Assembly: GCA_018061035.1 (NCBI GenBank) | Contig: JAGOUX010000003.1 | Location: forward strand, 3,043 to 67,042 | Length of the DNA stretch: 64,000 nt | Origin: Minisyncoccota bacterium | GTDB lineage: Bacteria; Patescibacteriota; Minisyncoccia; Phycocordibacterales; UBA9973 | Reading direction: 5' to 3' | Shown here: positions 11,449 to 56,913 of the stretch, piece after piece | Layout of the letters: each line of letters begins with the position of its first letter | Position numbering within the stretch: the first letter of the stretch is position 1 | The notes under the pieces: generated by a model | What the model was told of the DNA's origin: nothing | The model's database searches: none | What the model saw: the letters and a program-made list of their open reading frames with translations, nothing else | Translations under genes and position numbers: made by a program

Positions 11449-13017
11449 ATGAAGCATAGGCTACAAGTATTTCTTCTTTTGCTATTGGTTTTAGTTGTGC
11501 CGAGTTGCTCTGTAGAAGCTTCCTTTTTTGAGGGAGTGGGACATGTAAAATACTATGGTTTTTATGATTCTTCATACGGCGATCAATCAATTCCTAGATT
11601 TGTGGGTTCTGTCAATGTCAGTATTACTGGTCAATTTACAGAAAATAATGCAACTCAATATGTAGATTGGAAAGCTGAGGGCGGGATACATTCGATTTAT
11701 CAAGTAGCCAATATATTTTTTAATGCCAATGATCTGACTAGTGACTATCAGGCAAAGTGGAACACACTTGCTTCCAAAATTTCTCCCAGTGTGGCCAATG
11801 GCTCAATAGTTGCTTTTTATCTTTATGATGAGCCGTACGGAAATTTGAAGGCTCGTGGCGTATCCCGAGACTCTGCTTATGTTCAGTTGCAAACTGCTGC
11901 GAGGGTAATAAAGGCATCTTTCCCCAATACTCCAATAATGGTGGTGGAGGGTCGCACCGATATTAATCCCATGAGTTCTGATAGTAGTGTTCCGGGAAAA
12001 ACAATTCTTTTTCCACCCGAAATAGACTGGATTGGTTTTGATTGTTATGGGGGTACATTTGAATCCTGTGGTACTGAAGGATACGGTGTAAAGTATTATT
12101 TTGATTTACTTAAATCAGCAATGACATCGAACCAGAGGATTGTATTGGTGCCACAAATCGCTGCCGTTACTGATCCTAATAATCCAACAAATCCCACTTC
12201 TCTTGATCAAGATTATATAATAAATTTAAATCAGAAATATGTGGAGCTGGCAGAGTCTAATAGTGAGGTGATAGCGGTGCTCGGATATACTTCAGCAAAT
12301 ATTGCATACAATGGTCACAATTATTGGTGGGGAGGGTTGGCTGAGAAATGGGGGAATCTAGATAATAGAGTTGTAGTGGATAGTTTGCTTGCTAATGGCA
12401 GACGTCTTCTTTTTAAAACATCATGCAGGATAACTTTGCCATTTTCTGCGCCGACTGGGTATGCAAATGGTGCAACAACTTTCGTAGATAATTATCTAAA
12501 TGCATCTGCTGACAAGACGCAGTGTATGAAAAGGGCAAATGATCTTTATAATTTTTTTGGAGTGCCATCTATTTTTACAGGAAAAAAAGTTACCAGTAGT
12601 TATATCGAAAATGGTGTAGTTATCGAGACTAATATTGTAGGAAGTGAGGAGCCTGTTGCGCCTATAGTAATAAATGTACCGCCAACTACCATACCTCCTG
12701 TAGTAATGCCACAAGTTCCAGTGGTTCCGCCTACTATCGCGAACCCAATTACTTCTCCCAATAAACCTGTTTCTGTTTCTTTTTTTAACTTTGGCACAAC
12801 CACACTTAGAAATGGTAGTCGTGGGGAAGCAGTGAAAGAATTGCAAAGGTATTTGAATTACATTCTAAATCTTGGTTTGGTGGTAGATGGAAAATTAGGA
12901 CCTAAAACAATTGCTGTCATAAAAGTTTGGCAAAGAGAGAATGGATTAGTTCCTGACGGATTTGTAGGAAATAAAACTAAATTACAAATGCTTAAATTTA
13001 TTAGTGCAAAACAATAA
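11449..13017 (+). CDS. Secreted protein with a C-terminal peptidoglycan-binding domain (PG_binding_1-like) and a Pro-rich linker; N-terminal ~400-aa domain of unknown function, possibly a TIM-barrel glycosidase-like domain
   Basis: Signal peptide MKHRLQVFLLLLLVLVVPSCSVEA. Pro-rich stretch VPPTTIPPVVMPQVPVVPP. The C-terminal motif LQRYLN...VVDGKLGPKTIAVIKVWQRENGLVPDGFVGNKT is typical of the PG-binding domain. Confidence 0.7.
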   Translation: MKHRLQVFLLLLLVLVVPSCSVEASFFEGVGHVKYYGFYDSSYGDQSIPRFVGSVNVSITGQFTENNATQYVDWKAEGGIHSIYQVANIFFNANDLTSDYQAKWNTLASKISPSVANGSIVAFYLYDEPYGNLKARGVSRDSAYVQLQTAARVIKASFPNTPIMVVEGRTDINPMSSDSSVPGKTILFPPEIDWIGFDCYGGTFESCGTEGYGVKYYFDLLKSAMTSNQRIVLVPQIAAVTDPNNPTNPTSLDQDYIINLNQKYVELAESNSEVIAVLGYTSANIAYNGHNYWWGGLAEKWGNLDNRVVVDSLLANGRRLLFKTSCRITLPFSAPTGYANGATTFVDNYLNASADKTQCMKRANDLYNFFGVPSIFTGKKVTSSYIENGVVIETNIVGSEEPVAPIVINVPPTTIPPVVMPQVPVVPPTIANPITSPNKPVSVSFFNFGTTTLRNGSRGEAVKELQRYLNYILNLGLVVDGKLGPKTIAVIKVWQRENGLVPDGFVGNKTKLQMLKFISAKQ

Positions 13018-13023
13018 GCCCAT

Positions 13024-13581
13024 TTGCTCATGACGATAAATTTTTTAAATAGAAATAAATCTGACCTTTTGTATGACAAAAGAGGTTTTACCCTCATCGA
13101 ACTTTTAGTCGTTGTAGCTATCATCGGCATACTCGCTAGTGTGGTTATGGTGTCGCTTGGTTCAGCGAGAGGTAAGGGGCGTGATGCGAAGAGAATTATG
13201 GAAAAGAACGAATTTATTACCGCTCTCAATCTTTATTATGGTGATAACGGTACATGGCCACAAGCCGTAGGAGGAGTTTGTGTTGGCCCAAATGGAGAGA
13301 CTTGTTGGCTCGGAAGTTTTTCAGGTTCATCAACTTTTGTTTCGGCGATGTCGACATATATGCCTACTTTTCCAGACAATAGTGCACCAGCAGGTACCTA
13401 TGCAAATAATAGAATGATATATCTATACCCACAGGCTGAAAACTGGCTTACTACTGGGTCTCCCGCTGGTGCATATGTAATATGGGTACAAGAAAATTCA
13501 ATTCCAGATTCTAAATGTCCAGCAGGATATTTGGGGCACTGGGACGCATACTATTATTGTTACGAATGGATAGGTCCGTAA
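13024..13581 (+). CDS. Type IV pilin-like protein (prepilin with N-terminal cleavage/methylation motif), paralog 1
   Basis: KRGFTLIELLVVVAIIGILASVVMVSL is the class III signal with G|FTLIE and Glu at +5. C-terminal Cys pairs are present. Confidence 0.85.
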   Translation: MLMTINFLNRNKSDLLYDKRGFTLIELLVVVAIIGILASVVMVSLGSARGKGRDAKRIMEKNEFITALNLYYGDNGTWPQAVGGVCVGPNGETCWLGSFSGSSTFVSAMSTYMPTFPDNSAPAGTYANNRMIYLYPQAENWLTTGSPAGAYVIWVQENSIPDSKCPAGYLGHWDAYYYCYEWIGP

Positions 13582-13620
13582 TTAATTTAATTTTTTAATT
13601 TAATACGGTATAATGTATGT

Positions 13621-13980
13621 ATGCCACCAGAAATCAAACCACCTACAGCCGCAGAAATCGAGCAGGCACTCAAAGATGGGCTAGTTAGTAATCCTGAACT
13701 GGGAAATGCCTTAAGAGAATTTGAGGCAAAGGAATCTAATGAAATACCTACCAAGCAAAAGACAGCCACAAAGGATGAAACTCCAGGAATGGTGAAGCTT
13801 GTTTACAAACTTTCAGGTGGTTCTATTACAGAGCAACATCAAGCAGAATATGTGCTTCTCGGATTTATTATTGTAGCTACTTTAGTATCTGCTTATTTAT
13901 TTTTTAGTATAAGTGGTGAGAGTAGTCCTTCTGCTGCAGATCCTCTGATGTTGCAACTCCATCCTGAGTTAGTTAAATAG
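13621..13980 (+). CDS. Hypothetical protein with a C-terminal transmembrane anchor
   Basis: 119-aa ORF inside the pilin cassette. It has a predicted TM helix VLLGFIIVATLVSAYLFFSI. Confidence 0.4.
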   Translation: MPPEIKPPTAAEIEQALKDGLVSNPELGNALREFEAKESNEIPTKQKTATKDETPGMVKLVYKLSGGSITEQHQAEYVLLGFIIVATLVSAYLFFSISGESSPSAADPLMLQLHPELVK

Positions 13981-13984
13981 ATTT

Positions 13985-14479
13985 ATGGGCAGTTTGAAAT
14001 ACAAATCACAAGGTTTCACATTAATCGAACTCCTCGTAGTCGTGGCTATCATCGGCATACTCGCTAGTGTGGTTATGGTTTCGCTGAATTCAGCTAGAGT
14101 GAAGGGAAGAAATGCCGCGAGACTGGAATCTCTCAATACATTGCGCAATGCTTTTTATCTAGCCTTGGGAGATAATGGCTCTTTGCCTGTTACTACTGAC
14201 TGGGTTTGTGTCAGTTCTAGTTGTTATGGTGACTGGTCAGGTTTTACCGCTGATGCTACTGTAGATTCTTTTTTGTCAGCAAGTTTGCCCCAGAAACCAA
14301 TTGATCCTTCGGGTGGTAGTAGAGGCTACGGGGGTTTTGTGTACCGCAATCCGGTTGCGCTAGTCTCAGGCGCTGTCGGGCCTGATATTGAATTTATTCA
14401 AGAACTAGGAGGTTCGTGCGGGCCTGCTGCGACACGAGTAACTGCTGATTACATTGTATGCGATTTATTGCTGGAATAA
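13985..14479 (+). CDS. Type IV pilin-like protein, paralog 2
   Basis: QGFTLIELLVVVAIIGILASVVMVSLNSARVKGRNAARLES. C-terminal motifs CYGDWS and GGSCGP are shared with paralogs 3 and 4. Confidence 0.85.
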   Translation: MGSLKYKSQGFTLIELLVVVAIIGILASVVMVSLNSARVKGRNAARLESLNTLRNAFYLALGDNGSLPVTTDWVCVSSSCYGDWSGFTADATVDSFLSASLPQKPIDPSGGSRGYGGFVYRNPVALVSGAVGPDIEFIQELGGSCGPAATRVTADYIVCDLLLE

Positions 14480-14964
14480 ATAAAACAAAAAAAGGTTTCA
14501 CATTAATCGAACTCCTCGTAGTCGTGGCTATCATCGGCATACTCGCTAGTGTGGTTATGGTTTCATTGAATTCAGCTAGAGTGAAGGGAAGAAATGCAGC
14601 GAGACTTGAAAGTGTGCACACATTGATTAATTCATTTTACTTGGCATATGAGAATTCTTTTCCTCCTGCTTCGTCAAATAGCTGGTCTTGCATTGCAGAG
14701 AGTTGTTATGGCGACTGGTCAGTATATCTAGCAAATAGTACTGTGGATTCATTTTTAGAAAATGTTTTACCTCAAAAACCAGTAGATCCAAATGGGGGAT
14801 CACGTAGTGGGGGTGGATTTATTTATGCTAACCCGTATACTTATAATAGTGTAACAGGACCATGGGTGGGTTGGTTGATGGAGCCTGGAGGAAATTGTGG
14901 CCCAGGTGAAATATATCATAGTGATGAGACTTACATAGAATGTCTCGTAATGCTTAATGAATAA
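14458..14964 (+). CDS. Type IV pilin-like protein, paralog 3
   Basis: KKGFTLIELLVVVAIIGILASVVMVSLNSARVKGRNAARLES. The first ~110 bp of the mature region are near-identical at DNA level to paralog 2. Confidence 0.85.
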   Translation: MRFIAGINKTKKGFTLIELLVVVAIIGILASVVMVSLNSARVKGRNAARLESVHTLINSFYLAYENSFPPASSNSWSCIAESCYGDWSVYLANSTVDSFLENVLPQKPVDPNGGSRSGGGFIYANPYTYNSVTGPWVGWLMEPGGNCGPGEIYHSDETYIECLVMLNE

Positions 14965-15463
14965 ATTAAATTCAATGAATAAAACAAAAAGAGGTTTCAC
15001 ATTAATTGAATTATTGGTAGTCGTAGCTATCATCGGCATACTCGCTAGTGTGGTTATGGTTTCGCTTAGTTCCGCCAGGGTGAAGGGAAGAAATGCAGCG
15101 AGACTTGAAAGTATGCATACCTTAAGGAATGCATTCTATATCGCTCTAGAGTCAGGATCTTTTCCGACTAGTGGTTGGGCTTGTGTGGCTGCAAGTTGTT
15201 ATGGTTTATGGAGTCCATATGACAGTTCTGCTTCTTCTGAGCATGCTGCGACAAATGCTGCTGTATTGTCCTTTTTGGGTTTATCAGCAAATCAGTTGCC
15301 TGTCGATCCAGGTGGTACAGGATATGGTGGATATATGTATTATAATTCTGGCGGAATTGGGCCGTTGATTGAATTTCTACAAGAACCAGGTGGATCATGT
15401 GGTGCGGCCGTGGTTCACGCTACTCAACCTACATATGTGGATTGTTGGTTGTATCTAAATTAG
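14957..15463 (+). CDS. Type IV pilin-like protein, paralog 4
   Basis: KRGFTLIELLVVVAIIGILASVVMVSLSSARVKGRNAARLES with conserved C-terminal Cys motifs. Confidence 0.85.
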   Translation: MNKLNSMNKTKRGFTLIELLVVVAIIGILASVVMVSLSSARVKGRNAARLESMHTLRNAFYIALESGSFPTSGWACVAASCYGLWSPYDSSASSEHAATNAAVLSFLGLSANQLPVDPGGTGYGGYMYYNSGGIGPLIEFLQEPGGSCGAAVVHATQPTYVDCWLYLN

Positions 15464-21889: not shown

Positions 21890-22666
21890 ATGATAATTAT
21901 AAAGACCAAAGAAGAAATTGAAATATTACGAGAGGGAGGCAGGCGTCTTGCAACTGTTCTTCATAAGGTGAAGGACATGGTTGCTCCGGGAGTAACTACT
22001 CAGGAACTCGATCAGTATGCTTTTAAACTCATAAAGGATATGGGAGATTTTCCTGCATTCTTGAATTATAGGCCAGAAGGAGCGGATACGCCTTTCCCGG
22101 CGAGTTTGTGTGTTTCTGTAAACAACGAAGTGGTCCACGGAATTCCCAACAAGACACGAGTGCTCAAAGAAGGTGACGTGGTTTCGATAGACCTTGGTCT
22201 CAAGCATAAAGGACTCTTTACCGATATGGCTATGACAGTGCCAGTAGGGGCTGTATCTGCGGGAGTAGAAGCATTGCTCCGTAAGACCGAGCAGGCGCTC
22301 ATGGTGGGCATAGATGCGGCTGTAGGAGGTAATAAAACAGGAGATATAGGCTATGCAATAGAAAGCTTTGTAAAGGCGGATAAAAATCAAAAATACGGCA
22401 TTGTGGAGGTGCTCTCAGGCCATGGCGTAGGTAGAGCTATCCACGAAGATCCATACATACCAAACTTTGGAAAAAAGAACACAGGAGACAAACTTCAGCC
22501 TGGAATGGTGGTGGCAATAGAGCCAATGCTCAACATGGGCACAAAGCATGTCACTCTAGATCCTGACGGATATACATTCCGTACTGCTGACGGAAAGAAG
22601 AGTGCGCACTTCGAACACACAATTCTCATTACTGAGGGGGAGCCTGAGATTTTGACAAAGATTTAA
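21890..22666 (+). CDS. map: Methionine aminopeptidase type I
   Basis: Pita-bread fold with metal ligands (DVVSIDLG, HGVGRAIHE, AIEPM). I chose the ATG at 21890 (MIIIKTKEEIE). Confidence 0.9.
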   Translation: MIIIKTKEEIEILREGGRRLATVLHKVKDMVAPGVTTQELDQYAFKLIKDMGDFPAFLNYRPEGADTPFPASLCVSVNNEVVHGIPNKTRVLKEGDVVSIDLGLKHKGLFTDMAMTVPVGAVSAGVEALLRKTEQALMVGIDAAVGGNKTGDIGYAIESFVKADKNQKYGIVEVLSGHGVGRAIHEDPYIPNFGKKNTGDKLQPGMVVAIEPMLNMGTKHVTLDPDGYTFRTADGKKSAHFEHTILITEGEPEILTKI

Positions 22667-22748
22667 GAAGTGCTACAATGGTTTTTATGTTAATAAAGCT
22701 GAAATATTCTATATGTGATTCTAGAATTTTCCCCGAATATCGTCTCCC

Positions 22749-22771
22749 AAACCGCTAGAAGCGGTTTTTTT
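22749..22771 (+). terminator. Rho-independent terminator after map
   Basis: Stem ACCGC/GCGGT followed by T7. Confidence 0.6.
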
Positions 22772-22809: not shown

Positions 22810-24639
22810 ATGGACAAGAATAAGCAAAAATTATTAGGACGGGTCGAAAAGCATATGCATTCCGTCATAGCTAAAATCAAGGAGAAGCTTGAGGCCGCAA
22901 AAGGTCTAGCCAACCAAAGCTTGAAAGGTTTTGGGAAAATGCTGCCAGAAGACCAAGCAGTATTCATGAGTCTTCGAGGTCATGCGCACAAGAGAGTGAG
23001 AGAGCTGTCGCACCTCGAAGGTTCTCCATACTTTACAAAATGCGAAGTCATAGACGAATCAGGGAAACATGTCGATTACTTTTTTGCCAAACATGAGTTC
23101 TCTGAAGAATCGATTTACTCCTGGGTGGCTCCAGTATCAGCAATTCGCTTTGAGGATCCTGGTGTAGTTTCTTTCAAGTTGCCGAATGGAGTCAAAAGAA
23201 CAGTTACAATAAAGCAAAAAGAAACCTACATGATTGTAGATGGCAAAATAATGTTCTTTGCCCTAGAAGCACAAGGCAAGTCTAGGCAACTTATCTATCA
23301 AGAGCATTTTACGAAACAAAAGTCGGAATTCGTGCTTCCCGAAATAGTGGCGCAAATGGAAAAAGCTCAGGACCTGGTTATCCGTGCAAATCACAAAGGT
23401 CCGCTTGTAATCTCCGGACCCGCTGGAAGTGGCAAGACTACACTTGCACTTCATCGTGTGGCATATCTTACTCAGGTGCCTGATACTGCAGAATTATATC
23501 CTGCGCAGTCAATTCTGGTATTAGTACAGGACAACGGGACAAAGAAATATTTCTCTACGCTTCTACCTAGCCTAGGTATTAATGATGTTCACATTGTAAC
23601 TTTTTCCGAATGGGCTTTCAGCATTCTTGGTATAGAGGACTACTCATACGGAGAACGATACGGAGAAACTGAAGAAGAAAAAGATGTATATGAATACCAA
23701 AAACTAAAGAGTCTAAGGGAGGGTAAAATTGCGTCGTGGAATAAAAACATATTCGATGTTTTAAAGTCTCAGTATTTGGGATTCTTTGGAGAAGTTAGTG
23801 TCGGGTTGCTAAGCAAGCAAAAGAAAGATGCTAAACTTGACCGCTTTGATTTAGTTGTTCTTCTTCGGTCATGCTTTGCGAAGCATAAAAAATTTGAGAT
23901 CAGGCGGCAGTACAATACATTTGTTAAAGACAAGCTCGTGCGCAAGACGGAAAAGACTCTGATTGAATATTCTCTCATGATCATAGACGAATTCCAGAAC
24001 TATCTACCCGAGCAGCTCCAGATTCTGAAGAATTGTTTGAATACATCCACTCAGTCAGTCGTGTATGTGGGGGATATGGCTCAACAGGTTAAACTTGGCA
24101 CTATCCGGAACTGGGACGAGATTGGTGAAGTCGTTTCTCCAGACAGAAACGTAAAGCTAAGCAAGGTGTATCGCAATACAAAAAATATTTTAGAATTTAT
24201 AAAAAGTCTCGGCTATAGCGTCGAGCTTCCCGCAAGCTTAAAAGAAGGACCAACGGTGGTTGAGAAAAGAACTGAAACAGTTGAAGAAGAGATTGAACAT
24301 ATTAAAGCGCACATCAATACTTATAAAAATGGAAGCATTGGAATCTTGGCAAAAGATGAGTCGTACCTAGAAGCTTTCAAAAAAGAATTCACCGGAGTGA
24401 AAAATGTTCACGTTCTTACGATGCTAGAGTCGCAAGGTGTGGAATTTGATTATGTCTGTATCGTTGGAATCAGCAATGAATTCTTTAATATTGCTCATAC
24501 TACAGACATATCGTCTATTCACATTGAGGAACGGAGGCGTATGCAGAAAGATTTGCTCTATGTTGCACTCACTCGTGCTATCACTGAGCTTCATATTCTC
24601 GGTAGCGAACCCATAAAGATCGATATTGCTCGCTTGTAG
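22810..24639 (+). CDS. helD: HelD-like (helicase IV) UvrD-family SF1 helicase
   Basis: N-terminal SPYF motif region. Walker A VISGPAGSGKTTLALHRVAYL, Walker B IIDEFQNY, and a C-terminal LYVALTRAITELHI (UvrD_C-like) motif. Confidence 0.7.
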   Translation: MDKNKQKLLGRVEKHMHSVIAKIKEKLEAAKGLANQSLKGFGKMLPEDQAVFMSLRGHAHKRVRELSHLEGSPYFTKCEVIDESGKHVDYFFAKHEFSEESIYSWVAPVSAIRFEDPGVVSFKLPNGVKRTVTIKQKETYMIVDGKIMFFALEAQGKSRQLIYQEHFTKQKSEFVLPEIVAQMEKAQDLVIRANHKGPLVISGPAGSGKTTLALHRVAYLTQVPDTAELYPAQSILVLVQDNGTKKYFSTLLPSLGINDVHIVTFSEWAFSILGIEDYSYGERYGETEEEKDVYEYQKLKSLREGKIASWNKNIFDVLKSQYLGFFGEVSVGLLSKQKKDAKLDRFDLVVLLRSCFAKHKKFEIRRQYNTFVKDKLVRKTEKTLIEYSLMIIDEFQNYLPEQLQILKNCLNTSTQSVVYVGDMAQQVKLGTIRNWDEIGEVVSPDRNVKLSKVYRNTKNILEFIKSLGYSVELPASLKEGPTVVEKRTETVEEEIEHIKAHINTYKNGSIGILAKDESYLEAFKKEFTGVKNVHVLTMLESQGVEFDYVCIVGISNEFFNIAHTTDISSIHIEERRRMQKDLLYVALTRAITELHILGSEPIKIDIARL

Positions 24640-24700
24640 TTAGTCTTTTAACCTTTTTGTTATATACTTAAGGGAATGGATCCCGTTAGAAGTCCTCTAG

Positions 24701-24729
24701 TTAATTAAATTTACAACAAGTGATATAAT
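24701..24729 (+). promoter_or_regulatory. Promoter for the 24800 ATPase gene (TTAATT-17-TGATATAAT extended -10)
   Basis: Extended -10 TGATATAAT at 24721-24729. Confidence 0.4.
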
Positions 24730-24768
24730 CAAGCTATGTATTTTAGTCGATATTGTAAATCTAACAAT

Positions 24769-24786
24769 GGAAATCTAAAGATTTCC
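24769..24786 (+). promoter_or_regulatory. 18-bp perfect palindrome GGAAATCTaaAGATTTCC, 13 nt upstream of the ATG; putative operator
   Basis: 8-bp inverted repeat with a 2-nt spacer, too tight for an RNA hairpin. The same palindrome with the same spacing to the ATG recurs at 30873-30890. Confidence 0.5.
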
Positions 24787-24799
24787 TACTTCTAACGGG

Positions 24800-27571
24800 A
24801 TGGAAGGACAATTCTTTAAGGAAATGCCTAAATTCAAGACTCCAGAAGAGGAGCTTGATTATCTTCGCGCTCATGTCGCGAAAAGAGAAGAGGAGCTCAT
24901 TCAGAAGGGTCATTTTGAACATGCGAATGAAAACGCTGCGCAAGATGTGATTGGTGCGTATAAAGAAATTCCTAAAGAAGATGTGATACACAAGAGCAAC
25001 TATGTCTCCGAGCGTGAGACAGAAGGCATTGTACTCAAACTCAAGCCTGAATCGCATGATGCGGTAATGGAGGAGCTACTCGGACTCGTGATAACCAAGG
25101 GTGTGAAGAACGCGCTCTCTGTGGTGGAATCGATGGGTAGTCCGCATATCGATGATGATTTCCATCGTCTGCTTATTCAATATCTAAAAACAGGCAGAGC
25201 ATTTGATCTCAAAGAAGGCACACCAATACATCGTTCGCTTAACATGACTCTTTTTGAGATAACTTTACCGCCACCTGATGATGAAGCAGATAAATCAAAA
25301 GGATTCAAAGAATTCATTGGTGCGATGGAGCAGTTTTATGCCGGCATGCAGTCCATAGGCGAGGGCAAGTCTAATGAGAAAGAAATTTACTTCACTCTTG
25401 AGGTTGCGCTCGGTATGGATACAGACCAGGTGGTGGTATATGCTGGAGTACCAAATAAATATATTTCTCTCTTCGAGAAGCAGGTCCTCGCTTTTTATCA
25501 CAATGCCAAAGTTCGAGAGACTGCAGATGATTTCAATGTATTCAATGAGCATGGGGTGTCACTCGGAGCATATGCTTCATTTTCTGAGAGAGGAGTGATG
25601 CCGATCAAGACTTATGACAATATCGACCATGATCCGATGAATACGATATTGAATGTCTTCTCTAAACTAAAGACCAAGGGAGAGGGCGCGGCGATTCAGC
25701 TCGTCATTGCTCCTGCGGGGGATAAATTCATCAATGAGTTTCACCACATTCTTGATGATGTTAAGAATGGAACCTCTGTGAAGCATGCTTCTGATAATCT
25801 CTATAAGTTCAATAAAGCCTTTTTAAAAGTAGGTAAGGAGTTATTGTTCGGCGTAAAGAAGGCTCCAATCGAGGATGTTCAAAATAAGGATATGTACATG
25901 AAAGGCAGACGTGCGGTAGATGAAGGCGCAGCAGAAAAGATTGGCAACAAAATGAAGAGCTCGATCATGAAAGCCAATATTCGCGTCATTGCTTCTGGTG
26001 ACACCATGCAAAATGCACAAGGGATATTGAATGAAATCGAGTCATCGTTCAATCAGTTTTCAGAGGCGGCAAGCAACTCATTTATTTTCGAGCAATTACA
26101 CGGGTCTGAGCTAAAAAGTTTTTTCCACGATTTTTCATATAGAACATTTTCTCCAAATAAGATATTGCCGATGAATTTGAAGGAGCTCGCTTCGGTATTC
26201 CATTTCCCTGTAGGTATTGGGTCTCAGCCTCAACTTAAGGAAGCAAAGGCCGGCATAGCTCCAGCACCGATAGAGATGGGAGGAGAAGGAATCGTGCTCG
26301 GAGTAAATAGCTATAGAGGCAAAGATACAGATATTCATATGTCTCGAGAAGATCGAATGCGTCATTTCTATGTAATCGGTCAGACCGGTACTGGTAAAAC
26401 TAACATAATGCTCAATATGATTACTCAGGACATTAAAAATGGCGATGGTTGCTGTTATATCGATCCACACGGTACTGATATCCAAACTATATTGTCTCGT
26501 ATTCCCAAAGAGCGTATTGATGATGTGATTTATTTCGATCCTGCATATACCGCACGCCCCATGGGCCTAAATATGCTCGAATATGATCCAAGATATCCGG
26601 AACAGAAAACATTCGTGGTCAACGAGATGATGGGCATATTCAACAAGCTTTTTGATATGAAGGTGGGTGGTGGAGCGATGTTTGAGCAGTATTTCCGCAA
26701 CAGTGCCTTCCTTGTGATGGAGGACCCAGAATCTGGATCTACTCTTCTTGAGATTACTCGTGTTCTCGGAGACAAAGAATTCCGTGATATGAAATTGGCG
26801 AAATGCAAAAATCCAATCATTAAACAATTCTGGGTTTCTGCAGAGCAGACAACAGGGGATCAATCTCTTGCAAACTTCGTGCCTTATATTTCTTCAAAAT
26901 TTGATAACTTTATCTCGAACGATATCATGCGTCCGGTGGTACTCCAGCAGAATTCTGTGTTTAATTTCCGTAAGATTATGGATGAGAAGAAGATTCTCTT
27001 AGTAAACTTGTCCAAAGGAAGGTTAGGAGATATTAACGCTAATCTTATCGGTCTCGTATTGGTGGGCAAGATCCAGATGGCAGCTCTTTCTCGAGTGGAT
27101 ATGTTCGGCAAGCCAATGAATGATTTCTATTTGTACATCGATGAGTTCCAGAACGTTACTACCGATTCCATTTCTTCTATTCTCTCTGAGGCTCGCAAAT
27201 ACAGACTATCGCTCAATATAGCTCACCAGTACATCAGCCAGCTTGATGAGAAGATCAAGAATGCCGTATTTGGAAACGTCGGCTCGATGGCTGTGTTCCG
27301 AGTGGGAACAGAAGACGCTACTTTTCTTGAAGCCAAATTTAAGCCTCAGTTTACTGCTCACGATATTACCAAGCTCGATAATTACAATGCTTATGTCAGC
27401 ATGCTAGTAAAAGGCCAGCCAACCAAACCATTCAATATCAAGACTCTCGCCCCAGAAGAGGGTAATATGACTATTGTAGATAGCTTGAAAGAACTTTCGT
27501 ATGTAAAATTTGGACGTGACCGAGAGGAGGTGGAGGCAGAAATCATGGCTCGGTATAAGAGTATGGAGTAG
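24800..27571 (+). CDS. Large soluble ATPase (923 aa): C-terminal TraD/TraG/VirD4 (T4CP)-like HerA/FtsK-superfamily P-loop domain plus an N-terminal ~500-aa domain of unknown function
   Basis: Walker A HFYVIGQTGTGKTN, then DPHG. Walker B LYIDEFQN, then ARKYRLSLNIAHQYISQL....MAVFRVGTEDATF (TrwB/TraD-like post-Walker B signature). No N-terminal TM helices. Confidence 0.65.
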   Translation: MEGQFFKEMPKFKTPEEELDYLRAHVAKREEELIQKGHFEHANENAAQDVIGAYKEIPKEDVIHKSNYVSERETEGIVLKLKPESHDAVMEELLGLVITKGVKNALSVVESMGSPHIDDDFHRLLIQYLKTGRAFDLKEGTPIHRSLNMTLFEITLPPPDDEADKSKGFKEFIGAMEQFYAGMQSIGEGKSNEKEIYFTLEVALGMDTDQVVVYAGVPNKYISLFEKQVLAFYHNAKVRETADDFNVFNEHGVSLGAYASFSERGVMPIKTYDNIDHDPMNTILNVFSKLKTKGEGAAIQLVIAPAGDKFINEFHHILDDVKNGTSVKHASDNLYKFNKAFLKVGKELLFGVKKAPIEDVQNKDMYMKGRRAVDEGAAEKIGNKMKSSIMKANIRVIASGDTMQNAQGILNEIESSFNQFSEAASNSFIFEQLHGSELKSFFHDFSYRTFSPNKILPMNLKELASVFHFPVGIGSQPQLKEAKAGIAPAPIEMGGEGIVLGVNSYRGKDTDIHMSREDRMRHFYVIGQTGTGKTNIMLNMITQDIKNGDGCCYIDPHGTDIQTILSRIPKERIDDVIYFDPAYTARPMGLNMLEYDPRYPEQKTFVVNEMMGIFNKLFDMKVGGGAMFEQYFRNSAFLVMEDPESGSTLLEITRVLGDKEFRDMKLAKCKNPIIKQFWVSAEQTTGDQSLANFVPYISSKFDNFISNDIMRPVVLQQNSVFNFRKIMDEKKILLVNLSKGRLGDINANLIGLVLVGKIQMAALSRVDMFGKPMNDFYLYIDEFQNVTTDSISSILSEARKYRLSLNIAHQYISQLDEKIKNAVFGNVGSMAVFRVGTEDATFLEAKFKPQFTAHDITKLDNYNAYVSMLVKGQPTKPFNIKTLAPEEGNMTIVDSLKELSYVKFGRDREEVEAEIMARYKSME

Positions 27572-27618: not shown

Positions 27619-28086
27619 ATGAAAACAGAAAAAACACTTATAATATTAAAGCCTGACGCAGTGCAGCGTAATTTAGTAGGGGAGGTTATTAGCCGTTTTG
27701 AAAAGAAAGGCTTAAAGATAATAGGAGTAAAAATGATGAGCATAGAGACTGTCACCCTTGAAGAACATTATGCGCACATAAAAGATAAGCCATTTTTCCC
27801 TGGTGTTCGTGATTTCATGAAAGTATGCCCAGTTGTGGTGATGGCGCTTGAAGGTGTGAATGCTGTGTCTGCAGTGAGACTGATCGTTGGGCCAACTAAG
27901 GCATGGGAGGCCAATGCTGGAACGATTCGAGGAGATTTTTCTCTTTCTACTCAATCAAATATAGTGCATGCTTCTGAAACAGTAGAAGCAGGAGAAGTTG
28001 AAATAAAGAGATTCTTCTCAGGTAACGAGATATTTGAATACAAAAAAATTGATACTGACTTCGTTTACGCGGAGCATAAGGAATAA
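27619..28086 (+). CDS. ndk: Nucleoside diphosphate kinase
   Basis: 155 aa with NIVHASE active-site His motif and LIILKPDAVQR. Confidence 0.92.
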   Translation: MKTEKTLIILKPDAVQRNLVGEVISRFEKKGLKIIGVKMMSIETVTLEEHYAHIKDKPFFPGVRDFMKVCPVVVMALEGVNAVSAVRLIVGPTKAWEANAGTIRGDFSLSTQSNIVHASETVEAGEVEIKRFFSGNEIFEYKKIDTDFVYAEHKE

Positions 28087-28090
28087 AAAT

Positions 28091-28645
28091 ATGTACGAAG
28101 TAGAAGTAAAGGCACAACTCAAGGACCGACAAGCTGTAAAAGGCAAGTTGGAGTCTTTGGGCTGTGTGTTTGGTGAGGAGCTTCATCAGGTAGATACTAT
28201 ATTTGTGCCCAAGGGTACACCATATCCATCACCAATGGATACTCCTGTTCTCCGAGTTCGCAGACAAAATGGTAAAGCTATTTTAACCCTAAAGATATCC
28301 CAGTCCAGTAGGCAGGATTGTATAGAAAAAGAGCTTGAGGTTGCTGATGGAAATATCATGGTGGATATAATTCATTTGATTGGCTATGAAGAATTTGTGG
28401 CAGTAGTTGATAAGAAAAGAATTAAGACCCATGTGGGGGATATGGAGGTGGTGCTAGATGAAGTAAAAGATCTGGGCGAGTTTATAGAAGTAGAAAAGGT
28501 GGTAACTGAGGCTGATCCAGCAGTTAGAGTAAAAACCCAAGACGAACTATACGCCTTTCTAGAAACATTAGGTGTATCTAAGGAAGATCATGTGATTGGT
28601 GGCAAGTACGACATCATGCTTTACGAGAAATTGAATTCAAAATAA
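28091..28645 (+). CDS. CYTH-domain protein (triphosphate tunnel metalloenzyme; CyaB-like class IV adenylyl cyclase / triphosphatase family)
   Basis: N-terminal EVEVK (ExExK) motif and beta-barrel Glu pattern. I chose the ATG at 28091 (MYEVEVKAQL). Confidence 0.65.
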   Translation: MYEVEVKAQLKDRQAVKGKLESLGCVFGEELHQVDTIFVPKGTPYPSPMDTPVLRVRRQNGKAILTLKISQSSRQDCIEKELEVADGNIMVDIIHLIGYEEFVAVVDKKRIKTHVGDMEVVLDEVKDLGEFIEVEKVVTEADPAVRVKTQDELYAFLETLGVSKEDHVIGGKYDIMLYEKLNSK

Positions 28646-38475: not shown

Positions 38476-38549
38476 CCGTCCTTAGCTCAGTTGGTTAGAG
38501 CACAGAGCTTATACCTCTGGGGTCCTTGGTTCGAATCCAAGAGGACGGA
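38476..38549 (+). tRNA. tRNA with anticodon UAU (reads AUA; tRNA-Ile2-like). Verify identity.
   Basis: Manual fold: acceptor CCGTCCT/AGGACGG 7 bp; D-arm GCTC/GAGC; anticodon stem CAGAG/CTCTG with loop CTTATAC; T-arm CTTGG-TTCGAAT-CCAAG; discriminator A. Confidence 0.7.
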
Positions 38550-38649
38550 CACGTACGATATGAATTCGAACAGGAAAGGGGTCGGGAAAACATATGTTTT
38601 CCCGTGAAGGAAGGCTTGGGAGAACCCTGGGTTCCCCAGGTGTGAAGAT

Positions 38650-48222: not shown

Positions 48223-48226
48223 ATTG

Positions 48227-48315
48227 CGGAGCCGGACGGATTCGAACCGTCGAGGGGTTTTAAAGCCCCTGCCTCTTTAGCAAAGAGGTACGTTAGACCA
48301 CTCTGACACGGCTCC
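48227..48315 (-). tRNA. tRNA-Ser (anticodon GCU), class II with long variable arm; D-stem irregular
   Basis: On the reverse complement: acceptor GGAGCCG/CGGCTCC, anticodon stem CCTCT/AGAGG with loop TTGCTAA, variable stem GGGG/CCCC, T-arm GACGG-TTCGAAT-CCGTC. Confidence 0.7.
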
Positions 48316-48385: not shown

Positions 48386-48470
48386 GGAGGCGTGGATGAG
48401 TGGCTTAAATCAGCGGTTTACTAAACCGCCGTCCTTTACCGGACCGTGAGTTCGAATCTCACCGCCTCCG
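48386..48470 (+). tRNA. Class II tRNA (long variable arm) with apparent anticodon ACU (unusual A34). Identity uncertain: Ser-like or an atypical/suppressor tRNA.
   Basis: Acceptor GGAGGCG/CGCCTCC; D-stem GAT/ATC; anticodon stem GCGGT/ACCGC with loop TTACTAA; T-arm GTGAG-TTCGAAT-CTCAC. Confidence 0.55.
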
Positions 48471-48541
48471 CAATAAAAAGTTTTTATCGGTAGACTCAAG
48501 TACCTAAATATCTATATCTAAGCTAGAATTGATTTATCGCC

Positions 48542-50228: not shown

Positions 50229-51455
50229 GTGTATGATGATACTATTATGGCCAATAAGACAATAGAACCAAAAAGAGAGAAGAGTTCCTGTGATTATTGC
50301 GGAGATGCTCCTATAAATCACGGCCTATTTTATTTTACTAGTCTGATTTCTATGCTAGTAGATAATCATGTGATCAAGGTTACAAAAAATGTCCCAGAAT
50401 ATTTTAAGAATTTAGTAGATCGTTTTATATATTTTACTTTTGATGTTTTTGTCTTTTTTAAAATGGCAGTATTGTCTGACGATATTTCTAAGACAAACAC
50501 TTTCCGATCGAGAGTGGTGTGGGAAGAAGCGCGTAGGAGGGGGATAGATATGAAGCAACTCGTCCTATTTGGAAAGCCGATAGATCAGTATCGAACCAAA
50601 TTGGGTAAACATTATGCCTATTTTAATAGTTTACCTATACCACCCAAATTATTGAATATGAAGCAAAATTGGGATGATAAATTCATTCTAAAAAATGAAC
50701 TTATAAAGAATGACATACCCATACCAAAGTATGTGCAGTTTCCAACTTTTTACCACGAAAGCTTGGACAAGATTTTTGCTAAGCTAGAAAAGCCTATAAT
50801 TGTAAAACCCAGAATCGGTTCACGTGGTAGACATACAGTCACAAATATTCGAACCTTGGGTCAATTTGAGAATGGGGTAAAAATAGCCGGCAAAATATGT
50901 TCCTATTTAGTTGCCGAAGAACATATCGAGGGCGATGTTTGTAGAGCCACTCTAATCAAAGGTAAGTTAATGGGATTTTATCGTGGAGCCTCCCCATTTG
51001 TGATTGGAGATGGTGTGAAGAGTGTTCGAGAGTTAATAAATGACAAGGACGCCAATCGACCAGATCGTGTTGAAAAAGTCTTGGTCAATGATGAATTAAT
51101 CAATTATATAAAAAGACTCGGTTATGAAATGGAGAGTGTGGTTCCGAGCGGATTACGCTTGGGGCTTTCACATCGCACAGGGAGGCTGTTTGGAGGAGAG
51201 ACCAAAGAAATGTTAGACGAGCTTCATCCTAGCTTCATACCTATTCTCGAAAAAGCTGCTGGGGTAGTCGAACTTGCTGTGGCGGGTTTTGATTGTATTG
51301 TGCCTGATCCTACCAAAGACGCAAATAGTCAAAAATGGGGAATCATCGAATGTAATACACTGCCATTTATCGATCTTCATTATTATGCACTCTATGGCAA
51401 GCCGAAAAATATAGCTGGCGCTGTGTGGGACATTTGGGAGGAATTTTCCCGTTAA
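50229..51455 (+). CDS. ATP-grasp domain protein (cyanophycin-synthetase/RimK/Ddl-like ligase fold)
   Basis: KPIIVKPRIGSRGRHTV is the ATP-grasp B-loop. Start codon uncertain. Confidence 0.55.
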   Translation: MYDDTIMANKTIEPKREKSSCDYCGDAPINHGLFYFTSLISMLVDNHVIKVTKNVPEYFKNLVDRFIYFTFDVFVFFKMAVLSDDISKTNTFRSRVVWEEARRRGIDMKQLVLFGKPIDQYRTKLGKHYAYFNSLPIPPKLLNMKQNWDDKFILKNELIKNDIPIPKYVQFPTFYHESLDKIFAKLEKPIIVKPRIGSRGRHTVTNIRTLGQFENGVKIAGKICSYLVAEEHIEGDVCRATLIKGKLMGFYRGASPFVIGDGVKSVRELINDKDANRPDRVEKVLVNDELINYIKRLGYEMESVVPSGLRLGLSHRTGRLFGGETKEMLDELHPSFIPILEKAAGVVELAVAGFDCIVPDPTKDANSQKWGIIECNTLPFIDLHYYALYGKPKNIAGAVWDIWEEFSR

Positions 51456-52135
51456 TGGGCAATAGTAAAAGCGACTACCTTTTTTGCTCCAGAAGCCTTG
51501 AGAACTTTGCGGGCTTCATTTAGTGTAGCACCGGTGGTCACCACGTCGTCTAAGAGAATTATATTTCTACCAAGTACAAGATTTTGATTTCGGACTGTGA
51601 ATGTCCCAGAAAGATTTTTTAATCGTGTTCCACGATCTTTAATCCTAGCTTGATGTACTGTGTCGTGTGGTTTGATTAGGATATCATTGCGAAATAAGAA
51701 GTTCTGATTATTGTCGAGGCTTGATATGTGTCTACACAAAATTTCTGTTTGATTGAACCCTCGCTCTCGCAACCTTTTTGAAGATAGGGGTATAGGTATG
51801 AGTATTGGGTTTTTAAAATTTTCCATTATATCGAGATCTGCTAATTCTTCTATAATTCTTCCATATAGCACATCCGCGTACATGGCTAGTATTCGTTTTT
51901 TGTATTTATATTTAATTAAATTTATACTCTTCTTAATGGTAAGATCACGATAGTCGAAAACCGGATATATCCAAGATTGAGTGGGGCGAAGAGCTGGACT
52001 ACATTTTGAAAGACAGGTTATGCAAAGTTCTGACCCGGCTTTACTGCAAGATACACAATAAACAGGGAATATTAGACCCAGAATCAATTCTTTTGCCTTC
52101 AGTAAAGATGTCATCAAATTAGCAACGATACTCAT
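51452..52135 (-). CDS. comFC: Competence protein ComFC (phosphoribosyltransferase family)
   Basis: N-terminal Cys cluster CVSCS...CITC and PRTase motif ILLDDVVTTGATL. Confidence 0.8.
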   Translation of the reverse strand: MSIVANLMTSLLKAKELILGLIFPVYCVSCSKAGSELCITCLSKCSPALRPTQSWIYPVFDYRDLTIKKSINLIKYKYKKRILAMYADVLYGRIIEELADLDIMENFKNPILIPIPLSSKRLRERGFNQTEILCRHISSLDNNQNFLFRNDILIKPHDTVHQARIKDRGTRLKNLSGTFTVRNQNLVLGRNIILLDDVVTTGATLNEARKVLKASGAKKVVAFTIAH

Positions 52136-52223
52136 ATGTTATTAGGTTACTTCTATACATATGTATTTCTAACAAGATACATATATGCTATAATTATTTA
52201 GTATTTTATCATATTTACCTGTT

Positions 52224-53351: not shown

Positions 53352-53383
53352 GTGCGATAATAAGGTAGAATAGAATAAAGAAG

Positions 53384-54016: not shown

Positions 54017-54020
54017 TTTT

Positions 54021-54635: not shown

Positions 54636-54636
54636 T

Positions 54637-55101: not shown

Positions 55102-55104
55102 ATT

Positions 55105-56862: not shown

Positions 56863-56913
56863 TTGTCCCCGAAATGACTATTATTGCATCTAATTTTGTA
56901 ATATAATTACTGT

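What the first reader, a model, noticed from the sequence alone, without database searches (positions are those of the whole stretch)
24800..27571. Soluble 923-aa TraD/VirD4-like ATPase with an uncharacterised 500-aa N-terminal domain and no membrane anchor
The C-terminal half has a T4CP-type signature: GQTGTGKT Walker A, then DPHG; DEFQN Walker B, then RKY...AHQYISQL...FRVG. Canonical coupling proteins are membrane-anchored and encoded with relaxases/T4SS. Here there is no TM segment, no relaxase and no T4SS. Instead there is a large novel N-terminal domain. This may be a new architecture of the HerA/FtsK/T4CP clade, possibly working with the T4P/competence machinery or as a defence ATPase.
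Basis: partly seen in the sequence, partly recalled or inferred. Interest (0 to 1): 0.6.

Follow-up and report, generated by a model that had tools for sequence, protein, structure and literature searches.

The report
Anchor-less coupling-protein ATPase of a Paceibacteria genome
This gene encodes a type IV secretion "coupling protein" motor that ultra-small Paceibacteria (CPR) keep as a core gene as conserved as ribosomal proteins; in this lineage it lost its membrane anchor by fusing with a small partner protein. The family is catalogued but has never been studied.

Summary
The 923-aa ORF (24800-27571, +) is real and intact, and every quoted motif is present. No transmembrane segment is detectable.

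It belongs to a large Patescibacteria family that Pfam lists as DUF8128 plus T4CP domains. NCBI names the members [quoted passage not shown]. So the architecture is catalogued, but uncharacterised.

New findings here:
- **The N-terminal 500 aa is composite.**
  - Residues ~1-135 match a small protein (123-141 aa). In sister lineages this protein is a separate gene directly upstream of a membrane-anchored version of the ATPase. The window protein is therefore a gene fusion that lost the anchor helix.
  - Residues ~136-480 (the DUF8128 core) are predicted to fold like the N-terminal domain of VirB4.
- **A bona fide coupling protein shares the layout.** The anchor-DUF8128-ATPase layout aligns over its full length (E 4.5e-56) with the coupling protein of an actinobacterial plasmid T4SS cluster.
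- **It behaves like a core gene.** In Paceibacteria it sits in a fixed position (secY-adk-map-GENE-ndk). It is as conserved as ribosomal proteins and SecY. No VirB4 or relaxase lies nearby.

Best reading: a domesticated coupling-protein motor serving a T4SS-like envelope machine encoded elsewhere. A defence role is not supported, and the pilus/competence link is weak.

The parts
24800..27571 (+). Whole gene: 923-aa soluble DUF8128 + T4CP-type ATPase. It is identical to NCBI 'MAG: type IV secretion system DNA-binding domain-containing protein [Candidatus Pacebacteria]'.
   Evidence: ORF listing; 100% match to P0001; motifs located.
24800..25204 (+). N-terminal extension, aa 1-135: a helical module. 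It matches a separate 123-141 aa protein encoded directly upstream of the membrane-anchored family members, so it is the fused partner. It takes the place of the anchor helix.
   Evidence: BLAST, phmmer and HMM matches of five upstream small ORFs to window aa ~50-130 (E 2e-9 to 3e-4; HMM E 2.7e-6). AF2 predicts helices at 15-35, 42-55, 87-130.
25070..25180 (+). Conserved motif of the partner module, aa 91-127 (EELLGLVITKGVKNALSVVESMGSPHIDDDFHRLL). It is shared with the free-standing small proteins (LLxxAxxKGVxxAxxVAxxxxDPYxLDxFHD).
   Evidence: Alignment A4; phmmer ranges.
25205..26239 (+). DUF8128 core, aa 136-480. It is built of alpha/beta (ferredoxin-like) modules with a disordered acidic/basic loop at aa 336-370. 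The predicted fold is closest to the N-terminal domain of VirB4 (TrwK). It ends in the conserved LNxxELAxxFHFP motif (aa 458-470).
   Evidence: AF2 domain model, pLDDT 84.6, pTM 0.83. In Foldseek against the PDB, the only hits at E<=1e-3 are 9 TrwK/VirB4 chains, best 2.9e-6, TMq 0.46-0.48. hhalign against the N-domain of the Embleya coupling protein gives 96%, E 4e-9. PF26449 appears in precomputed annotation.
26240..26290 (+). Pro/Ala-rich linker between the N-domain and the motor (aa 481-497, ...AGIAPAPIEMGGEG).
   Evidence: Alignment A1; no regular secondary structure predicted over aa 482-497.
26291..27454 (+). T4CP-type (VirD4/TrwB-like) P-loop motor domain, aa 498-885. Motif positions: Walker A GQTGTGKT at 26378-26401; DPHG at 26462-26473; Walker B DEFQN at 27140-27154; RKY at 27194-27202; AHQYISQL at 27221-27244; FRVG at 27296-27307.
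   Evidence: Pfam and NCBIfam T4CP models. hhalign against TrwB gives 94%, E 1.5e-7 over 256 columns. Foldseek against TrwB gives TMt 0.61-0.67, rmsd 4.3-6.7 A. Mean identity across the family is 62%.
26600..26944 (+). All-alpha insertion within the motor (aa 601-715). It is positioned like the all-alpha domain of TrwB and is unusually conserved (59% mean identity across the family).
   Evidence: AF2 predicts helices 602-705 between strands 576-579 and 732-736; region identities.
27455..27568 (+). Conserved C-terminal helical hairpin (aa 886-923; KELSxxKYGRxRxEVExEI).
   Evidence: Alignment A1; AF2 helices 890-904 and 908-920.
24640..24799 (+). 160-nt upstream intergenic region. It holds an extended -10-like element TGATATAAT (24721-24729) and a 14-bp perfect inverted repeat (24680-24693 / 24788-24801) whose second arm covers the first two bases of the start codon. 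No terminator-like site separates the gene from ndk (27619).
   Evidence: Sequence read directly. The promoter/terminator scan lists no site between 27571 and 27619. Promoter-like sites are not more frequent than in shuffles (14 found against 14.7 expected). The repeat is not conserved in L001.

Best explanation
**What it is (shown).** The gene encodes a VirD4/TrwB-type coupling-protein (T4CP) ATPase of the FtsK/HerA superfamily with a complete set of catalytic motifs. It has three parts.
- A helical module (aa 1-135) that is a free-standing small protein in sister lineages.
- A DUF8128 domain (aa 136-480) predicted to fold like the N-terminal domain of VirB4.
- A TrwB-like motor with an all-alpha insertion.

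**Where it comes from (shown).** The ancestral-looking form of the family is one N-terminal membrane helix, then DUF8128, then the motor. That form aligns over its full length with the coupling protein of an actinobacterial monoderm-type (MPF-FATA-like) T4SS cluster.

**What happened in Paceibacteria (shown).**
- The gene became a vertically inherited chromosomal core gene in a fixed position: ribosomal operon-secY-adk-map-GENE-ndk.
- It is under constraint as strong as that on ribosomal proteins.
- It is unlinked from virB4 and has no relaxase nearby.
- In the window's lineage the upstream partner gene fused to it and the anchor helix was lost.

**How it works (inferred).**
- It assembles as a hexameric ATP-driven translocase and substrate receptor.
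- It docks peripherally on a membrane machine through the VirB4-like N-domain and the fused partner module.
- That machine is most probably the near-universal, non-conjugative T4SS of Patescibacteria, encoded elsewhere near the origin of replication.
- It feeds protein or nucleic-acid substrate into that machine.
For: **Family assignment.**
- T4CP Pfam models score above their cut-offs.
- NCBIfam TraD and CD1115 models give partial hits.
- hhalign against TrwB gives 94% probability, E 1.5e-7, from Walker A to the Q motif.
- Foldseek against TrwB gives TMt 0.61-0.67.

**N-domain fold.**
- The full-length model matches TrwK/VirB4 over about 905 alignment columns, E 6e-14.
- The N-domain alone hits only TrwK/VirB4 chains at E<=1e-3.

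**Homology to a coupling protein inside a T4SS cluster.**
- The family profile aligns with Embleya WP_331738717.1 at E 4.5e-56 over 713 columns.
- The N-domain profile alone gives 96% probability, E 4e-9.
- The Embleya protein has one TM-like helix at aa 34-52.
- Its neighbours are a PrgI-family protein, a VirB4-like ATPase (AAA_10, TraC_F_IV), a replication-relaxation protein and an NlpC/P60 hydrolase.

**Gene fusion.**
- All 5 membrane-anchored loci carry a 123-141 aa ORF 3-133 nt upstream that matches window aa ~50-130.
- An N-terminal hydrophobic helix is present in 104 of 119 short forms and in 0 of 120 long forms.

**Core-gene behaviour.**
- At least 596 species genomes carry a relative.
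- Synteny is conserved down to 45% identity.
- Identity tracks S5, L18, L6, SecY and Map to within 3 points. It exceeds adk, pyrH and ndk by 17-20 points.

**A T4SS exists elsewhere in such genomes (literature).**
- VirB4 is found in 2,417 of 3,035 Patescibacteria genomes, near dnaA in Paceibacteria.
- There are 5,713 T4CP homologues, of which only 148 lie near virB4 (PMC12102498).
Against: - No T4SS component lies within +/-8-10 kb of the gene in any of 86 loci, or anywhere in the 64-kb window. The link to the T4SS is therefore by homology only.
- In the one Patescibacterium with genetics (Ca. Southlakia epibionticum, Saccharimonadia), the T4CP homologue was not essential while other T4SS genes were (PMC12102498). 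Whether that protein is of the DUF8128 type was not tested.
- The loss of the membrane anchor is unexpected for a coupling protein.
- In 9 of 86 loci, and on a Rhodococcus plasmid, the recurrent neighbours are a DUF5663 protein and large coiled-coil membrane proteins, not T4SS genes.
- The likeness to the VirB4 N-domain rests on one method applied to a predicted model (TM 0.46-0.48). It has no sequence-level support.
Confidence: 0.5

Rival explanations
1. It is the motor of a separate, undescribed envelope apparatus, independent of the VirB4 T4SS. That apparatus would be built with a DUF5663 protein and a large membrane protein (640-1,120 aa, with coiled-coil, TM and low-complexity regions).
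For: - DUF5663 homologues lie next to the gene in 9 of 86 CPR loci, covering both fused and anchored forms and in different gene orders.
- A related ATPase on Rhodococcus ruber pYYL1.1 is directly followed by a DUF5663 gene.
- The large neighbouring proteins are partly homologous across lineages.
Against: - The association is absent from the window and from the loci with the map-GENE-ndk arrangement.
- DUF5663 is absent from the Embleya and Streptomyces T4SS clusters.
- The large proteins could themselves be T4SS-associated surface proteins. Nothing is known of DUF5663.
Confidence: 0.2
2. It is a nucleic-acid import or scavenging motor working with the type IV pilus/ComEC/ComFC competence machinery. 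It would pull in DNA or RNA that is then degraded to nucleotides.
For: - The conserved neighbours are nucleotide-handling genes: adk, pyrH, ndk, CYTH, a YfbR-like HD phosphohydrolase, an RNase J-like enzyme and an LDcluster4 protein.
- In L044 the gene abuts the comFC-pilM cluster, and L069 and L074 have one T4P-cluster gene adjacent.
- From established knowledge: VirB4-type ATPases drive DNA import in the Helicobacter ComB and archaeal Ced systems. There is also a weak NCBIfam CedD hit (E 2.9e-5).
Against: - secY-adk-map is a universal bacterial gene order, so part of the association carries no information.
- T4P adjacency is seen in only 3 of 81 loci.
- In S. epibionticum, loss of ComEC did not affect viability (PMC12857230).
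- The closest full-length relative is an export-type coupling protein.
Confidence: 0.12
3. It is an FtsK-like chromosome or cell-division DNA translocase that happens to descend from a coupling protein.
For: It shows housekeeping-level conservation and a position in the ribosomal gene neighbourhood. It is soluble and belongs to the FtsK/HerA superfamily.
Against: - Pfam FtsK_SpoIIIE gives E 0.21, below its cut-off.
- No FtsK gamma domain was found.
- Sister forms carry a single anchor helix and T4CP-specific motifs.
- Whether these genomes have their own FtsK was not tested.
Confidence: 0.05
4. It is an anti-phage defence ATPase of the HerA or MADS-mad8 type.
For: - PADLOC gives mad8 at E 6e-13 over aa 508-866, plus weak HerA hits limited to the P-loop region.
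- The closest plasmid relative of the motor domain (Bradyrhizobium, 31.5% identity) sits among CHAT and TPR genes.
- A UvrD/HelD-like helicase lies directly upstream in the window.
Against: - The gene is syntenic, single-locus, vertically inherited and as conserved as ribosomal proteins.
- The upstream helicase is a lineage-specific insertion, absent from all 81 related loci.
- No nuclease or Sir2 partner is present.
Confidence: 0.03

Closest known systems
Coupling protein (VirD4-family T4CP) of actinobacterial monoderm-type T4SS clusters, e.g. Embleya sp. NBC_00896 plasmid WP_331738717.1 (812 aa) and the equivalent 814-aa ORF of Streptomyces sp. BHT-5-2 p1
   Same: It aligns from the DUF8128 N-domain through the motor (hhalign E 4.5e-56 over 713 columns; N-domain alone 96%, E 4e-9). 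It shares the LxxxELAxxxHxP junction motif. It has the same layout as the membrane-anchored Patescibacteria forms.
   Different: - The Embleya protein has an N-terminal membrane helix and lacks the 135-aa partner module.
- It is plasmid-borne, next to a VirB4-like ATPase, a PrgI-family protein, a replication-relaxation protein and a cell-wall hydrolase.
- The window gene is chromosomal, has no anchor, and has no T4SS or relaxase neighbours.
- Motor-domain identity is only about 29%.
TrwB of plasmid R388 (structural archetype of VirD4-type coupling proteins)
   Same: It shares the motor fold, including an all-alpha insertion. It shares the Walker A, DPxG, Walker B, RK and Q motifs in the same order.
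   Different: - TrwB has a 70-aa two-helix membrane domain and no DUF8128 domain.
- Identity is about 17%.
- TrwB is encoded next to its relaxase TrwC.
VirB4 (TrwK of R388)
   Same: It has a two-domain layout of a large soluble N-domain followed by a TrwB-like motor. The predicted DUF8128 fold matches only the TrwK N-domain at E<=1e-3.
   Different: - There is no sequence-level similarity in the N-domain.
- VirB4-specific models (CagE_TrbE_VirB, AAA_10, TraC_F_IV) do not hit.
- There are no VirB3, VirB6 or VirB8 neighbours.
Membrane-anchored DUF8128-T4CP of other Parcubacteria (Moran-, Portnoy-, Staskawicz-, Colwellbacteria), with its upstream 123-141 aa partner gene
   Same: It is the same family, 37-42% identical over the shared region. 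It has the same N-domain, motor and C-terminal tail.
   Different: Those proteins are about 800-835 aa, start with one hydrophobic helix and keep the partner as a separate gene. The window protein has the partner fused and no helix.
Rhodococcus ruber pYYL1.1 'DUF87 domain-containing protein' (738 aa) plus its DUF5663 neighbour
   Same: The motor domain is homologous (hhalign E 3e-44). It is followed by a DUF5663 gene, as in 9 CPR loci, and a CYTH gene lies nearby, as in the window.
   Different: Its N-terminal 230 aa is not recognisably DUF8128. It has no anchor. Its context is uncharacterised.

Membership tests
VirD4-type coupling protein (T4CP) | FtsK/HerA-superfamily P-loop motor recognised by T4CP-specific profiles | tested here: met
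   PF12696 scores 26.1 (cut-off 22) and PF10412 scores 23.3 (cut-off 20.5) on the whole protein. PF02534 scores 24.6 (cut-off 20.1) on the C-half. hhalign against TrwB gives 94%. Foldseek TMt is 0.61-0.67.
VirD4-type coupling protein (T4CP) | All-alpha domain inserted in the nucleotide-binding domain | tested here: met
   AF2 predicts seven helices at aa 602-705 between core strands. This is model-based only.
VirD4-type coupling protein (T4CP) | N-terminal transmembrane anchor | tested here: not met
   The maximum KD-19 in the first 90 aa is below 1, and the whole-protein maximum is 1.54. None of 120 close homologues has one. 104 of 119 short sister forms and the Embleya protein do.
VirD4-type coupling protein (T4CP) | Encoded with a relaxase and/or mating-pair-formation genes | tested here: not met
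   None is found in the 64-kb window or in the flanks of 86 related loci.
VirD4-type coupling protein (T4CP) | Full-length homology to a coupling protein located in a T4SS gene cluster | tested here: met
   The Embleya plasmid protein aligns at E 4.5e-56 over 713 columns, including the N-domain. Its cluster holds a VirB4-like ATPase, a PrgI-family protein and a replication-relaxation protein.
VirD4-type coupling protein (T4CP) | Curated equivalog thresholds (TraD, TrbC, CD1115) | tested here: not met
   The best hit, SXT_TraD, scores 51 bits against a cut-off of 366. The hits are partial.
VirD4-type coupling protein (T4CP) | Hexamer with ATPase and DNA/substrate-binding activity | not testable with these tools
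   This needs biochemistry or multimer modelling.
VirB4 | VirB4-type N-terminal domain | tested here: inconclusive
VirB4 | Recognition by VirB4 sequence models, and neighbours VirB3/VirB6/VirB8 | tested here: not met
   CagE_TrbE_VirB, AAA_10 and TraC_F_IV give no hit even at E<=10 on the two halves. No such neighbours are found.
Pfam DUF8128 (PF26449) | Match to the family model on the N-terminal half | tested here: met
   The family is listed first in the precomputed Pfam annotation of the identical protein P0001 and of all homologues. The name is given. The model is absent from the local Pfam copy, so the score was not re-computed.
HerA-type or MADS defence ATPase | Full-length match plus partner genes (NurA, Sir2, DUF4297 or mad genes) in a variable island | tested here: not met
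   PADLOC gives only weak HerA hits limited to the P-loop region and a partial mad8 match. No partners are present, and the locus is a conserved core region.
FtsK/SpoIIIE | FtsK_SpoIIIE motor profile and gamma (KOPS-binding) domain | tested here: not met
   PF01580 gives E 0.21, 11.4 bits, against a cut-off of 24. No gamma domain was detected.

The most novel reading that the evidence does not exclude
A conjugation-derived coupling protein has been converted into an indispensable, ribosomal-protein-grade housekeeping motor of Paceibacteria. It has been freed from the membrane by fusion with its adaptor.

It would drive the uptake or exchange of macromolecules (nucleic acids or proteins) with the host cell on which these reduced bacteria depend. 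It might work with the uncharacterised DUF5663 and large membrane proteins.

In addition, DUF8128 would be a true homologue of the VirB4 N-domain. VirB4 and coupling proteins would then descend from a common two-domain ancestor.
Probability: 0.2. Interest if true: 0.8.

Novelty: new variant of a known kind. Interest (0 to 1): 0.55.

Why it matters
**Background.** Patescibacteria carry a near-universal, non-conjugative T4SS that is essential for epibiotic growth in the one lineage tested. What it transports, and how substrates are selected, is unknown.

**What the literature has noted.** It counts thousands of 'orphan' T4CP homologues far from virB4 and says only that they may have been exapted (PMC12102498).

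**What this analysis adds for one large family of them:**
- an anatomy of partner module, VirB4-like N-domain and TrwB-like motor;
- an origin in a monoderm-type conjugative coupling protein, as seen in Actinomycetota;
- a natural split/fused pair that names an interacting partner;
- evidence of constraint as strong as on ribosomal proteins;
- a recurrent uncharacterised neighbour, DUF5663.

**Why that helps.** The function of the Patescibacteria T4SS-like machinery becomes more directly testable, because there is now a soluble, expressible candidate substrate receptor. If the VirB4-like fold holds up, it also bears on how the two T4SS ATPases diverged.

Tried and rejected
- **Exact-sequence contig look-up of the window protein:** not on record. 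Homologues P0002 and P0099 were used instead.
- **Local Pfam on aa 1-500:** no hit even at E<=10, because the local copy lacks PF26449.
- **Literature searches for PF26449, DUF8128 and DUF5663:** no papers found.
- **hhalign of the N-domain profile against single VirB4, TraC, TrsE and TrsD sequences:** no signal.
- **hhalign of the motor against single sequences:** apart from TrwB, matches are dominated by the P-loop. Even VirB11 gives 84%, so these comparisons were judged non-discriminating.
- **R388 accession BR000038:** not held; NC_028464 was used.
- **tblastn of the N-half against plasmids:** no meaningful hit.
- **Most of the 288 Bacillus plasmid matches to the motor:** short and weak, about 26% coverage in the spread listing. 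They were not pursued.
- **Promoter scan:** sites are not above the shuffle expectation (14 found against 14.7 expected).
- **The 14-bp inverted repeat over the start codon:** not conserved in L001, so it was left as a side note.
- **Upstream HelD-like helicase as a functional partner:** rejected, because it is absent at this position in all 81 related loci.
- **Frameshift or misassembly:** rejected.


Full report
**1.

Window 24800-27571 (+) is a 923-aa ORF that starts at an ATG, with an in-frame stop 21 nt upstream.

Three T4CP Pfam models pass their curated cut-offs:
- TraG-D_C and TrwB_AAD_bind on the whole protein;
- T4SS-DNA_transf on the C-half.

NCBIfam gives only partial TraD and CD1115 hits, far below the equivalog cut-offs.

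The most hydrophobic 19-residue window scores 1.54 and lies in a core strand of the ATPase, so no membrane segment is apparent.

The protein is identical to an NCBI record named 'MAG: type IV secretion system DNA-binding domain-containing protein [Candidatus Pacebacteria]'. More than 120 proteins of 913-927 aa are 84-91% identical over essentially the whole length. That excludes a frameshift or misassembly.

**2. Context.**

The window is a compact Patescibacteria chromosome segment. In order it holds:
- EF-G and the ribosomal-protein operon;
- secY, adk, pyrH and map;
- a HelD-like helicase;
- the gene itself;
- ndk, CYTH and an RNase J-like gene;
- tmRNA, FtsH, RNR and RecG;
- a comFC-like gene and a full type IV pilus cluster at 51-63 kb.

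The best 80 are all Paceibacteria/Parcubacteria-type MAGs at 45-85% identity.

The order secY-adk-(pyrH)-map-GENE-ndk-...-RNase J-like-...-L20-IF3 is kept down to 45% identity. The HelD-like helicase upstream is found at this position in none of the 81 loci. It is a local insertion, not a partner.

Within the same loci, the gene's identity to the window copy tracks that of the core translation and secretion genes. The median differences are:

| Compared gene | Median difference in identity (points) |
|---|---|
| S5 | -0.2 |
| Map | -0.6 |
| L18 | -1.3 |
| L6 | -2.5 |
| SecY | -2.8 |
| adk, pyrH, ndk | +17 to +20 |

The gene therefore behaves as a core, strongly constrained, vertically inherited gene. 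That is the opposite of a mobile conjugation or defence gene.

**3. The 'novel 500-aa N-terminal domain' is two things.**

*The family and its two forms.* A sensitive search with aa 1-500 found 970 clusters (at 50% identity), with full-length members of 790-1,120 aa. Precomputed annotation names the N-half Pfam DUF8128 (PF26449).

Aligning diverse members showed two forms:
- **Long forms** like the window protein carry a soluble helical extension of about 135 aa.
- **Short forms** of about 800-835 aa lack it and start with a single hydrophobic helix. They come from Moran-, Portnoy-, Staskawicz- and Colwellbacteria.

An N-terminal hydrophobic helix is present in 104 of 119 short forms and in 0 of 120 long forms.

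*The fused partner.* In all five short-form loci fetched, a 123-141 aa ORF lies 3-133 nt upstream of the ATPase gene. It matches window aa ~50-130:
- phmmer gives E 2e-9 to 3e-4.
- The shared motif is LLxxAxxKGVxxAxxVAxxxxDPYxLDxFHD.
- An HMM built from the five small proteins hits the window gene (E 2.7e-6) and 62 other fused genes, and nothing else in the window.

The window protein is therefore a fusion of a small partner protein with the ATPase, in which the anchor helix was lost. Which state is ancestral was not established.

**4. The DUF8128 core.**

AlphaFold2 gave a confident full-length model (pLDDT 83, pTM 0.67) and a confident domain model for aa 136-480 (pLDDT 84.6, pTM 0.83).

- Foldseek of the full model against the PDB ranks TrwK/VirB4 of R388 first, with about 905 aligned columns and E 6e-14.
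- TrwB (C-half only, TMt 0.61-0.67), HerA and Cag-beta follow.
- The N-domain alone hits nine TrwK/VirB4 chains and nothing else at E<=1e-3. The best is 2.9e-6, with TMq 0.46-0.48.

**5. The motor.**

hhalign of the family profile against TrwB gives 94% probability (E 1.5e-7) from Walker A to the Q motif. VirB4, FtsK and HerA models are at P-loop level only.

The model shows an all-alpha insertion (aa 602-705) at the position of the all-alpha domain of TrwB. Across the family the motor and this insertion are about 60% identical, against about 33% for the N-domain.

**6. A bona fide coupling protein has the same layout.**

tblastn of the motor half against 72,556 plasmids found much closer relatives than TrwB:

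| Source | Identity to the motor half |
|---|---|
| Orphan alphaproteobacterial proteins | 31-32% |
| Actinomycetota | 26-29% |
| Haloarchaeal and Sulfolobus conjugative-plasmid proteins | 25-28% |

The Embleya sp. NBC_00896 plasmid protein WP_331738717.1 (812 aa) is the key case.
- It has one N-terminal TM-like helix (aa 34-52).
- It aligns with the family profile over 713 columns (E 4.5e-56).
- The N-domain profile alone matches it at 96% probability (E 4e-9), including the LxxxELAxxxHxP junction motif.
- Its neighbours are a PrgI-family protein, a VirB4-like ATPase (AAA_10, TraC_F_IV, P-loop_TraG), a replication-relaxation protein and an NlpC/P60 hydrolase. This is a monoderm-type T4SS cluster.
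- An equivalent ORF series exists on a Streptomyces replicon.

So anchor-DUF8128-motor is the architecture of a coupling-protein subfamily. This fits the published view that the Patescibacteria T4SS descends from the MPF-FATA class (PMC12102498).

**7. What is missing, and other leads.**

phmmer searches were run with VirB4, VirB6, PrgI, TrsD and relaxase references against every ORF of the 86 loci and the window. They returned only the gene itself, through TrwB.

The literature reports the following (PMC12102498):
- VirB4 occurs in 2,417 of 3,035 Patescibacteria genomes, near dnaA in Paceibacteria.
- There are 5,713 T4CP homologues, of which only 148 lie near virB4.
- The T4CP homologue of S. 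epibionticum is non-essential.

A different recurrent neighbourhood appeared.
- DUF5663 proteins (about 100 aa, acidic) and large membrane proteins (640-1,120 aa, with coiled-coil and low-complexity regions) flank the gene in 9 of 86 loci. These loci include both forms and different gene orders.
- A related ATPase on Rhodococcus ruber pYYL1.1 is also followed by a DUF5663 gene, with a CYTH gene nearby.
- None of these lies in the window.

**8. Verdict.**

It is wrong in calling the architecture new and in suggesting defence.

The most likely mechanism is a hexameric coupling-protein motor, domesticated as a core gene. It would dock peripherally, through its VirB4-like N-domain and fused partner, on the chromosomal T4SS-like machine. 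Confidence in this reading is about 0.5.

The main rival is a separate apparatus built with DUF5663 and the large membrane proteins. A nucleic-acid-uptake role with the pilus/competence genes is a further possibility.

The finding is a new variant of a known kind and is of moderate interest. It offers a concrete, soluble entry point into the unexplained Patescibacteria T4SS biology.

Noticed in passing
window 22810-24639 (+): A HelD/UvrD-like SF1 helicase (NCBIfam HelD_BACSU, 129 bits against a cut-off of 419) lies between map and the T4CP-like gene. It has its own promoter-like site (22652-22679), and a terminator follows map (22749-22767). None of 81 related loci has it at this position, so it is a lineage-specific insertion.
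   Followed up: partly
window 11449-15463 (+): A 522-aa protein with a peptidoglycan-binding domain and four pilin-like genes (N-terminal methylation motif) are inserted inside the ribosomal-protein operon.
   Followed up: no
window 51452-63356: A comFC-like phosphoribosyltransferase gene (minus strand) abuts a complete type IV pilus cluster: pilM, a PilO-like gene, pilB, a response regulator, pilT, pilC, pilins and a prepilin peptidase. In locus L044 the T4CP-like gene sits directly next to the equivalent block.
   Followed up: partly
window 24680-24693 and 24788-24801: A 14-bp perfect inverted repeat (ATCCCGTTAGAAGT / ACTTCTAACGGGAT) has a second arm that covers the first two bases of the start codon. 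If transcribed, it could occlude translation initiation. It is not conserved in the homologous locus L001.
   Followed up: partly
window 38476-38550; 48226-48315 (-); 48386-48471 (+): There is a tRNA-Ile with anticodon UAU. There is also a tRNA-Ser called with the unusual anticodon ACT, divergently adjacent to a tRNA-Ser(GCT).
   Followed up: no
L055, L058, L062, L072, L073, L075, L076, L083, L089; Rhodococcus plasmid L095:9522-9845: DUF5663 genes (about 100 aa, acidic, no literature) recur next to this ATPase family in distant Patescibacteria lineages and on an actinobacterial plasmid. They usually come with a protein of 640-1,120 aa that has coiled-coil, TM and low-complexity regions. This may be an uncharacterised functional module.
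   Followed up: partly
window 28034-28645; L001, L004; L095:4145-4699: A CYTH (triphosphate tunnel) gene lies close to the ATPase gene both in Paceibacteria loci and on Rhodococcus ruber pYYL1.1. This could be coincidence or a shared association.
   Followed up: no
L005:4940-6685 and equivalents in L007, L008, L010, L013-L015, L017: A Cys-rich protein of about 570 aa with no Pfam match, often duplicated in tandem, lies just upstream of map, downstream of the adk/pyrH genes, in several related genomes. It is absent from the window.
   Followed up: no
L090:6083-8209 (Bradyrhizobium sp. 131 plasmid p131_1): The closest plasmid relative of the motor domain (31.5% identity, E 7e-63) is a 708-aa orphan protein with an unrelated N-terminal 300 aa. 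It is embedded among CHAT-domain and TPR genes, which looks like a conflict-system context for the same motor clade.
   Followed up: no
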